Shown here piece by piece: positions 37,391-38,332 of a stretch of 64,000 bases of DNA. Position numbers and translations under genes: made by a program. Source of the stretch: Octopus vulgaris (Eukaryota); contig OX597815.1 in assembly GCA_951406725.2 (NCBI GenBank), forward strand, positions 7,688,001-7,752,000, read 5' to 3'. Under the pieces are notes generated by a model. It worked only from the letters and a program-made list of their open reading frames with translations. It searched no databases and was not told where the DNA came from. The first letter of the stretch is position 1, and each line of letters opens with the position of its first letter.

Positions 37391-37514
37391 TCTCTCTCTC
37401 TCTCTCTCTCTCTCTCTCTCTCTCTCTCTATATATATATATATATATATATATATATATATATATATATATATATATATATATATCAAAAATAAGCAACA
37501 AGAATGGATCCGGT

Positions 37515-37606
37515 AACTTAGTACAATTGTTTCATACTATAACATTTTATTAAAAGCTGTAAATATTACAGCAGATATAATATGTCAAGTAATCTTCAGC
37601 TAATTT
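37515..37606 (-). ncRNA. Hammerhead ribozyme motif with extended stem II
   Basis: Reverse complement: aaattag-CTGAAGA-tTACT...(GCTGTAA tat TTACAGC)...AGTAt-GAAA-CAATTG-TA-ctaagtt. Confidence 0.72.
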
Positions 37607-37703
37607 CATATAGGTTTTCCAATAATATAAAATTCTATATTTTATATATATTATATTATTAAATATAAAATTCTATATTTTATATTATTGGAAAACCTAT
37701 ATG

Positions 37704-37795
37704 AAATTAGCTGAAGATTACTTGACATATTATATCTGCTGTAATATTTACAGCTTTTAATAAAATGTTATAGTATGAAACAATTGTACTTAGTT
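37704..37795 (+). ncRNA. Hammerhead ribozyme motif with extended stem II (mirror copy)
   Basis: aaattag-CTGAAGA-tTACT...AGTAt-GAAA-CAATTG-TA-cttagtt. Confidence 0.7.
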
Positions 37796-38332
37796 ACCGG
37801 ACCCATTTTTGTTGCTTATTTTTGATTATAATCACCCCGCATATTTTTATGGGTAATACCATAAAAAATTCTGGTGCATCTAAATTACGTACCATATTCA
37901 TTTGAATCTAAATTGTTTGCTGAACTATATATATATATATATATATATATATATATATATATATATATATATATATATATATATATATATATACAAAATG
38001 AGAAAATGGAGAAATATATCTAAATCAATCATCAACCATCAGATAATACCCAATCAATACTTTATTAAACCTTTACACATTAGCAATGATATTATACATT
38101 AATATAGTACAAATATAAGAAGACATAGAAATAGAAATAGAAATACATTTACATTGTAGCTGACAGCTATATATATATATATATATATATATATATATAT
38201 ATATATATATATATATGCGACAGGCTTGTTTCAGTTTCCGTGTACCAAATCCACTCACAAGGCTTGGTCGGCCTGAGGTTATAACACACACACGCTCCCC
38301 CCCCCACACACACATAAGGACACAAATGAAGT

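What the first reader, a model, noticed from the sequence alone, without database searches (positions are those of the whole stretch)
37484..37925. Family P1: back-to-back hammerheads with a ~60-nt extended stem II
Seen: ~150-bp inverted arms each contain CTGAAGA...GAAA-CAATTG-TA closed by stem I. Stem II is long and contains an inner hairpin GCTGTAA-tat-TTACAGC. The two motifs point outward on opposite strands, the right copy continues ~100 bp further, and the element sits in (TA)n. Established: Penelope-like pLTRs carry minimal hammerheads with palindromic stem III and often have an inverted pLTR copy. Inference: a non-autonomous or heavily truncated PLE family whose ribozyme has an unusually large stem II domain.
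Basis: partly seen in the sequence, partly recalled or inferred. Interest (0 to 1): 0.75.

Follow-up and report, generated by a model that had tools for sequence, protein, structure and literature searches.

The report
Jumping-gene hammerheads with very long arm
This is the broken-off end of a known kind of animal jumping gene, inserted as a mirror-image pair, whose likely self-cutting RNA has one arm more than twice as long as in published relatives; about 20,000 such long-armed motifs sit in this genome, and the standard RNA family search missed both copies here.

Summary
Observation confirmed. Both arms (155 bp, 97% alike) carry CTGAAGA-59 nt-GAAA-CAATTG-TA, in (TA)n. The element is the 5'-truncated 3' end (pLTR) of a Hydra-clade Penelope-like retrotransposon plus the usual inverted truncated copy, not a non-autonomous family: longer copies lead to RT and GIY-YIG, and sister subfamilies hold intact ORFs between two hammerheads about 4.7 kb apart. 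The extra ~95 bp is the parent's 5' UTR (the PLE 'tail'). The core is invariant in 12 of 12 positions across 11 subfamilies (33 of 114 elsewhere); stems I and II covary; loop III is palindromic (likely dimer cleavage). The long stem II is real (published Hydra: 12-26 nt) and genome-wide: 20,336 motifs with 40-62 nt, 176 in the control; Rfam missed both copies here. It folds as an unbranched hairpin, differs in sequence between families and spans 16-69 nt within one lineage, so it is likely a tolerated extension, not a new domain. Cleavage is untested. Side finding: a predicted 13-bp helix masks the ORF's AUG. The scan noted long-stem-II PLE hammerheads in other genomes before (e1-9545524, e1-9560118). 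New variant of a known kind; interest 0.42.

The parts
37484..37636 (-). Inverted, 5'-truncated pLTR copy, ending at the first 3' end (TTGAT/TATA) in (TA)n
37518..37603 (-). Type I hammerhead motif, left copy: CTGAAGA 37599-37593, insert 37592-37534, GAAA 37533-37530, CAATTG, predicted cut between 37522 and 37521; stem I 4 bp
37637..37678 (.). Junction filler between the arms: TA-rich, with a duplicate of the left arm's truncation end; likely a template-switch product
   Evidence: sequence; mechanism inferred
37679..37830 (+). Forward 5'-truncated pLTR copy (end of the parent's 3' UTR), up to the first 3' end TTGATTATA
37707..37792 (+). Type I hammerhead motif, right copy: stem I 37707-37710 with 37789-37792 (U-U mismatch from 37791), CTGAAGA 37711-37717, GAAA 37777-37780, CAATTG 37781-37786, predicted cut between 37788 and 37789
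37718..37776 (+). 59-nt extended stem II: unbranched bulged hairpin, U-U at its base, covarying basal helices
37738..37754 (+). Apical hairpin of stem II (GCTGTAA-tat-TTACAGC), kept with covariation in this lineage
37802..37814 (+). 13-nt segment that in full-length relatives is complementary to the ORF start region (predicted AUG-masking helix); two substitutions in this copy
37831..37925 (+). About 95-bp 'tail': the parent's 5' UTR, ending about 50 nt before the ATG at the second preferred 3' end
   Evidence: L102
43230..43630 (.). Second two-armed copy from a sister subfamily (78% alike), hammerheads at 43259-43358 (-) and 43456-43555 (+), with compensatory changes in stems I and II
44984..45225 (+). 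Third copy, another sister subfamily, truncated inside the core (C3 missing)

Best explanation
The locus is a 5'-truncated 3' end of a Hydra-clade Penelope-like retrotransposon with an inverted truncated copy, inserted in (TA)n, and each arm carries the parent's type I hammerhead, which likely cleaves as a dimer and whose 59-nt stem II is likely a tolerated hairpin extension rather than a new functional domain. Shown: anatomy, link to RT and GIY-YIG, core conservation, covariation, palindromic loop III, lability of stem II length. Inferred: the parent (pLTR-ORF-pLTR, about 4.7 kb) is transcribed with two same-strand hammerheads, which would pair through their palindromic loops III (ACAAUUGU) and cut after GUA, about 190-210 nt upstream of the ATG, releasing unit-length RNA; the RT would start at one of two sites (37830-type or 37925-type ends), primed at a (TA)n nick, stop early, and add an inverted copy by template switch. 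At this locus the two motifs lie on opposite strands, so one transcript holds only one sense motif, and a read-through RNA is predicted to fold into a ~150-bp hairpin that buries it: this copy is likely dead, and the back-to-back layout is a by-product.
For: Fixed 3' ends, variable 5' truncation and an inverted arm of the same family in 11 of 30 loci (own locus included; L002/L003 look duplicated), with spacers from 20 to over 1,400 bp. Upstream sequence leads to a GIY-YIG C-terminus (Pfam GIY-YIG 23 bits over a 22.6 cut-off for L033). L033 has a 96%-identical HHR region behind RT and EN; L102 has a 92%-identical pLTR followed by the ATG; 7 of 20 loci fetched hold open frames of 980-1,091 aa. 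Hydra motifs DKT, RWK, CxCX5C, CxxC, CxH present (definitions in PMC8557442 section 11). Core 12 of 12 invariant over 11 subfamilies against 33 of 114 other columns, p 1.5e-6. 11 of 22 pairs change on both sides, 89% of cells paired, 0 of 500 shuffles as high. Dimer helix -6.4 kcal/mol against +2.4 for the monomer hairpin; 91 of the first 100 listed motifs have a self-complementary loop III, 72 strictly (my hand tally). Homologous subfamilies of one other lineage have inserts of 16, 21, 23, 38, 39, 44 and 67-69 nt; inserts of different families share no sequence. Whole locus folds at -245.8 kcal/mol as one hairpin.
Against: No cleavage data. Within this lineage the insert keeps 57-60 nt and its apical hairpin across 11 subfamilies, with 20 of 59 columns invariant, which is more than a free spacer needs. 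One subfamily (4 copies) has the non-palindromic CAACTG and 4 of 117 copies have CAATCG, including the forward copy at 43466. The covariation control ignores relatedness, and the middle of the insert was left out of the tested structure because its register differs between subfamilies. No intact ORF was seen for the window's own subfamily among the loci fetched. In an anole PLE the hammerhead needed protein to cut, was dispensable for insertion in vitro, and left no RNA ends in RNA-seq (PMC11167929).
Confidence: 0.72

Rival explanations
1. Same element and ribozyme, but the long stem II is a working module in this lineage: a binding site for the element's RT/EN or a host protein, or a tertiary partner for stem I, needed for efficient cleavage or RNA handling.
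For: Length held at 57-60 nt and apical hairpin TGYAA-nnn-TTRYA kept with compensatory changes over subfamilies about 20-25% apart in DNA; 10,417 of 13,365 motifs of one loop III class have over 30 nt; a PLE hammerhead was reported to be protein-assisted (PMC11167929).
Against: No shared sequence between families; 16- to 69-nt inserts in closely related, abundant subfamilies of another lineage; the same elements have also grown long Asn-rich linkers and 0.6-1.5 kb 3' UTRs, which suggests general expansion.
Confidence: 0.18
2. The motif is kept as an RNA structure for another step (RT start-site choice, translation control) and does not cleave in vivo.
For: Weak stem III, 4-bp stem I, U-U at 10.1-11.1; hammerhead cleavage was not needed in vitro in an anole PLE; low in vitro rates for PLE hammerheads (PMC4209133).
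Against: All 12 catalytic positions invariant and palindromic loop III in at least 11 different sequences are what selection for dimer cleavage predicts; U10.1-U11.1 is reported to be compatible with cleavage (PMC3088659).
Confidence: 0.06
3. A non-autonomous, MITE-like or retrozyme-like palindromic family that moves as the two-armed unit.
For: Two two-armed copies in this window; 16 back-to-back pairs within 2 kb among the first 100 listed matches (my hand tally); ORF-free elements with long inverted arms exist in another lineage (L115, L121).
Against: Junctions and arm lengths differ at every locus; 19 of 30 loci have no inverted arm of this family; direct link to RT/EN; no tandem same-strand monomers as in retrozymes.
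Confidence: 0.04

Closest known systems
Hydra clade of C-terminal EN+ Penelope-like elements (Craig et al. 2021, PMC8557442; e.g. Hydra-1_Obim, Penelope-5_HM)
   Same: DKT, RWK, CxCX5C, CxxC/CxH motifs, (TA)n targets, inverted 5'-truncated copy, tail, sense type I hammerhead near the 3' end with palindromic loop III. The sister copy at 43463 reads atgg-ctgaagat-tgc...gca-tgaa, as Penelope-5_HM does in File S2.
   Different: 59 nt between the core halves against 12-26 nt in the 26 Hydra rows of File S2 (my count); unit about 4.7 kb against under about 3 kb; two Asn-rich insertions in the ORF; tail about 95 bp against 30-40 bp; a different family from Hydra-1_Obim (23-nt insert, different sequence).
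Minimal and variant PLE hammerheads (Cervera and de la Pena 2014, PMC4209133)
   Same: Type I topology, short stem I, palindromic helix III, larger than usual helix II, pairs on opposite strands 100-700 bp apart.
   Different: Helix II there is 6-8 bp; here a rod of about 22 bp with bulges. This motif keeps a 2-bp helix III with a 4-nt loop, so it is not a strict min-HHR, and lacks G10.1-C11.1 in this subfamily.
PLE-X1 hammerheads of spike mosses and Naiad 'HHR_half_core' cases (PMC8557442, Files S1, S2)
   Same: Long spacing between the core halves: about 54 and 48 nt in PLE-X1 (my count), 35-50 nt in eight Naiads.
   Different: Those are single, flagged, mostly large-loop cases in other clades; here the insert is paired throughout, covaries and occurs in about 20,000 copies.
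Non-LTR retrozymes (bioRxiv 10.64898/2026.07.22.740005; first of five parts and passages read)
   Same: Non-coding, PLE-derived, type I hammerhead.
   Different: Retrozymes are same-strand tandem repeats; this locus is an inverted pair of truncated ends of a coding element.

Membership tests
Hydra-clade PLE | Single ORF, RT followed by C-terminal GIY-YIG EN | tested here: met
   Open frames of 980-1,091 aa with YRDD, NHP thumb and EN; Pfam GIY-YIG hits. In the window's own subfamily RT and EN are present but split by frameshifts (L033, L102).
Hydra-clade PLE | DKT in place of DKG, and RWK motif | tested here: met
   ADKTG and IRWK in L091-L095; RWR in L096/L097
Hydra-clade PLE | CxCX5C linker; CxxC and CxH around the EN's E and N; no CCHH | tested here: met
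   CKCRIKSKC or CNCRIRSNC, CQLC, CVH or CIH; absence of CCHH judged by eye
Hydra-clade PLE | Insertion into (TA)n | tested here: met
   Most of 30 loci end in TA repeats; L011 does not
Hydra-clade PLE | pLTR tandem structure, inverted 5'-truncated copy, tail | tested here: met
   Four pLTR-ORF-pLTR units of 4,651-4,714 bp; inverted arms in 11 of 30; tail equals 5' UTR
Hydra-clade PLE | Generally short (under 3 kb) | tested here: not met
   About 4.7 kb, from Asn-rich linkers and a long 3' UTR. The paper gives this as a general trait, not a diagnostic one.
Hydra-clade PLE | Placement in an RT tree with named Hydra references | not tested
   The tree held only this genome's copies and unnamed homologues P0001-P0009; likeness to Hydra-1_Obim and Hydra-2_Amil was read by eye from the supplement
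Type I hammerhead ribozyme | Core C3 U4 G5 A6 G8 A9, G12 A13 A14, A15.1-U16.1, H17 | tested here: met
   Present in both arms; 12 of 12 invariant across 11 subfamilies; intact in 106 of 117 copies found without using the core
Type I hammerhead ribozyme | Stems I, II, III flanking the core | tested here: met
   Both-sided changes in 3 of 4 stem I pairs and 6 of 9 basal stem II pairs; stem III 2 bp, never varies in the 18 rows
Type I hammerhead ribozyme | G10.1-C11.1 pair | tested here: inconclusive
   U-U here; G-C, A-U or G-U in 11 of 18 rows. U-U is common in published Hydra motifs and reported as tolerated.
Type I hammerhead ribozyme | Loop II-stem I tertiary contact | not tested
   No search for such a contact was made
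Type I hammerhead ribozyme | Match to an Rfam hammerhead model | tested here: not met
   No hammerhead hit at E up to 10 in 37480-37930; likely due to the long insert
Type I hammerhead ribozyme | Self-cleavage after NUH | not testable with these tools
   Needs an assay or raw RNA reads
Non-LTR retrozyme | Same-strand tandem units each with a hammerhead, no ORF | tested here: not met
   Arms are inverted and the family has an ORF

The most novel reading that the evidence does not exclude
In this lineage the long stem II and the 13-bp helix that pairs the first nucleotides after the cut site with the ORF's AUG form one regulatory 5' leader: the ribozyme cuts about 200 nt before the start codon, and the structured, uncapped leader gates translation or hands the RNA over from translation to reverse transcription. 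With about 20,000 long-armed motifs unseen by standard searches, this would be a large overlooked class of protein-assisted hammerheads.
Probability: 0.15. Interest if true: 0.72.

Novelty: new variant of a known kind. Interest (0 to 1): 0.42.

Why it matters
Why PLEs keep hammerheads is an open question, and catalogues rest on descriptors with short stem II. This genome shows that most motifs of the class counted (10,417 of 13,365) have over 30 nt there and that Rfam misses the ones at this locus, so copy numbers and 'no hammerhead' calls in animals may be underestimates. The natural series of 16- to 91-nt inserts, young intact elements (98-99% alike) and a predicted AUG-masking helix give ready material to test dimer cleavage, stem II tolerance and a link to translation. 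The locus itself is an ordinary dead fragment.

Tried and rejected
Rfam over the whole window listed only microsatellite-driven miRNA hits among the 150 of 319 matches shown; the local search found no hammerhead. The repeat finder was swamped by microsatellites. Pfam found nothing on the whole ORFs (0 of 2; 1 of 3 partial ORFs). Monomer MFE folds do not give the three-way junction, as expected for a 2-bp stem III. Expression and cleavage: no RNA holder listed on record; the runs laid were contigs of guessed RNA or unknown type and cannot show ends or strand. The 3'-end histogram has two clusters, but my queries included the tail and the anchor pattern mis-matched in one subfamily, so I use it only as a qualitative result. 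I looked for non-Hydra ORFs on other long-stem families: the four families with a linked RT or EN all matched Hydra-type queries, and most loci had no detectable ORF; only Hydra-type queries were used. L126 was a stray 200-bp fetch with no use. The AUG helix was not predicted in the one other lineage tested (L111). Luense et al. 2017 (PMC5785218) was not available; I know it only through PMC6765202, and it or unseen supplements (for example of PMC4209133) may list long stem II variants. Eight literature searches showed no paper describing 50-90 nt paired stem II in animal PLE hammerheads; subscription papers are not covered.

Full report
Observation. The window is G000:C2:7688001-7752000, in a 2.8-Gb, microsatellite-rich animal genome; probably an octopus, an inference from one source label and from recall. 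The arms at 37479-37633 (-) and 37677-37830 (+) align over 155 bp at 97.4%, and each holds CTGAAGA, 59 nt, GAAA, CAATTG, TA. Stem I is 4 bp in the left copy; the right copy has a U-U mismatch from position 37791. The insert folds alone as one bulged hairpin (z -4.08; the sister copy at 43473 z -4.30). A model built from 18 copies finds 5 matches in the window: this pair, the pair at 43259-43555, and a copy at 44984 cut inside the core. Rfam finds no hammerhead here at E up to 10.

What it belongs to. A DNA search gave 2,140 candidates, 40 scored, 93-97% alike apart from the locus itself. In 30 loci the 3' end is fixed (partly by choice of query), the 5' end varies, and 11 have an inverted arm of the same family with a different spacer each time. 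Longer copies run about 820 bp upstream to the stop of a GIY-YIG domain. A protein search with that domain and then with the RT led to full units. L033 has RT, EN and a 3' region 96% identical to the window; L102 has a 92%-identical pLTR followed by the ATG; both are frameshifted. Sister subfamilies hold open frames of 980-1,091 aa in 7 of the 20 loci; four units measure 4,651-4,714 bp between hammerheads, three of them 98-99% alike. The protein has DKT, RWK, YRDD, CxCX5C, CxxC and CxH and, by eye, no CCHH, which is how Craig et al. define the Hydra clade (PMC8557442; section 11, passages and supplement parts 1, 2 and 52 read). It is larger than published Hydra proteins because of two Asn-rich insertions. 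I did not place it in a tree with named references. So the locus is a truncated end of an autonomous family.

The two ends. Inverted arms stop at TTGATTATA; the forward arm goes on about 95 bp. In L102 this extension is the 5' UTR and stops about 50 nt before the ATG. This matches the PLE tail, which in an anole PLE marks two internal RT start sites (PMC11167929, parts 1-2 of 4 read), though it is longer than the 30-40 bp reported. Hammerhead pairs on opposite strands 100-700 bp apart were already noted by Cervera and de la Pena (PMC4209133, parts 1-2 of 4 and passages). A transcript through the locus is predicted to fold into one hairpin of about 150 bp at -245.8 kcal/mol, so the pair is unlikely to work here.

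Is the ribozyme under selection? From loci found by DNA or protein search, not by the core pattern (L071-L090 and the two duplicates of the window left out), 117 of 128 profile hits span the core and 106 of these are intact; the seed profile was made from intact motifs. They form 14 clusters, 11 with two or more copies. Across those 11, 12 of 12 core positions are invariant against 33 of 114 in stem II and flanks (p 1.5e-6); within clusters the core differs at 14 of 1,368 sites against 373 of 12,598. On 18 real copies (14 cluster representatives, 2 window copies, 2 others), 89% of cells pair and 11 of 22 pairs change on both sides; 0 of 500 shuffles reach the score, and slid controls fall to 27-49%. 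This control ignores relatedness, and the middle of the insert was left out because its register shifts. RNAalifold recovers stem I, the stem II base and the apical hairpin unaided. Loop III is CAATTG, CGATCG or CGATTG in 98 of 117 copies; one small subfamily has the non-palindromic CAACTG. The dimer helix is favourable (-6.4 kcal/mol) and the monomer hairpin is not (+2.4), which fits the dimer mode described for PLE hammerheads (PMC6765202 passages).

How unusual is stem II? The 26 Hydra rows of File S2 have 12-26 nt between the core halves (my count); spike-moss PLE-X1 motifs reach about 48 and 54 nt, and eight Naiads have half cores 35-50 nt apart, so long spacing has precedent but not as a paired, covarying rod in animals in the papers I could search. 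In this genome it is the rule. With loop III fixed as RATY the counts are 2,948 (6-30 nt), 2,029 (31-53), 6,706 (54-62) and 1,682 (63-92), controls 5, 2, 2, 2. With loop III free, 40-62 nt gives 20,336 against 176; by hand, 91 of the first 100 listed have a self-complementary loop, in 11 different strict palindromes. Inserts of different families share no sequence and mostly fold as single bulged hairpins (22 clusters). Families with 39-, 59-, 63- and 85-nt inserts are linked to Hydra-type RT or EN and group together in a 182-column RT tree (95/93). In one other lineage, subfamilies 70-92% alike in DNA carry inserts from 16 to 69 nt. That argues for a tolerated extension constrained to stay helical. 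Against this, the window's lineage holds 57-60 nt and its apical hairpin across all 11 subfamilies.

Side finding. In 5 of 5 full 5' UTRs of this lineage, nucleotides about 12-26 after the cut site are predicted to pair with the region around the AUG with probability near 1. Of 34 start-region matches in the genome, 30 were fetched; 17 had the ribozyme's 3' half within 300 nt, and all 17 keep 11-13 of 13 pairs; changes are mostly to G-U, with one C-G to U-A. 1 of 2,000 shuffled UTRs reached 13 pairs. Covariation is thin, and the helix was not predicted in the other lineage tested. Hammerhead cleavage in a 5' UTR can drive cap-independent translation in viruses (PMC13725137, abstract and passages), so this is a testable lead, not a result.

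Earlier notes. After forming my reading I found that the scan had reported long-stem-II PLE hammerheads in other genomes (e1-9545524, e1-9560118) and a different, rearranged hammerhead in this genome (e1-8670534). They agree with the theme; I did not check their data.

Verdict. Real feature, known element class, known layout, a variant ribozyme geometry present at large scale. Cleavage is inferred from conservation only. New variant of a known kind; interest 0.42.

Noticed in passing
L095:2375-2590 (+), L102, L096, L042, L108; window 37802-37814: Predicted 13-bp helix between the segment just after the cut site and the ORF's AUG region, kept in 17 of 17 UTRs that could be scored.
   Followed up: partly
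L091-L097 (G000 C2, C20, C4, C6, C19, C11, C9): Young Hydra-clade elements with intact ORFs, three units 98-99% alike, with two Asn-rich linkers of about 90 and 180 aa; possibly still active.
   Followed up: partly
L115:478-6178 and L121:471-9588: Elements of the 16-nt-stem family with inverted arms of 2.5 kb (99.96% alike) and 4.0 kb (99.6%), internal repeats, and no Hydra-type ORF detected; possibly non-autonomous derivatives.
   Followed up: no
L096:1217 (-), L127, L128, L119: Hammerhead motifs with 84-91 nt stem II inserts; the 85-nt family folds at about -32 kcal/mol and is linked to a Hydra RT/EN.
   Followed up: partly
window 37000-37316: Upstream of the finding lies what looks like the 3' end of a mariner-type DNA transposon (reading frame with a DLAPSDYHLF-like motif; recognised from recall, not tested).
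   Followed up: no
window 9525-10560 and 31387-31870: 184-bp tandem repeat with further dispersed copies (family D17).
   Followed up: no
window 35619 (-), 44224 (-), 12928 (-), 31255 (-): Further hammerhead-like pattern hits (27, 34, 21 and 94 nt inserts); the 35619 one has a look-alike in L034 and may be another family, the others may be chance.
   Followed up: no
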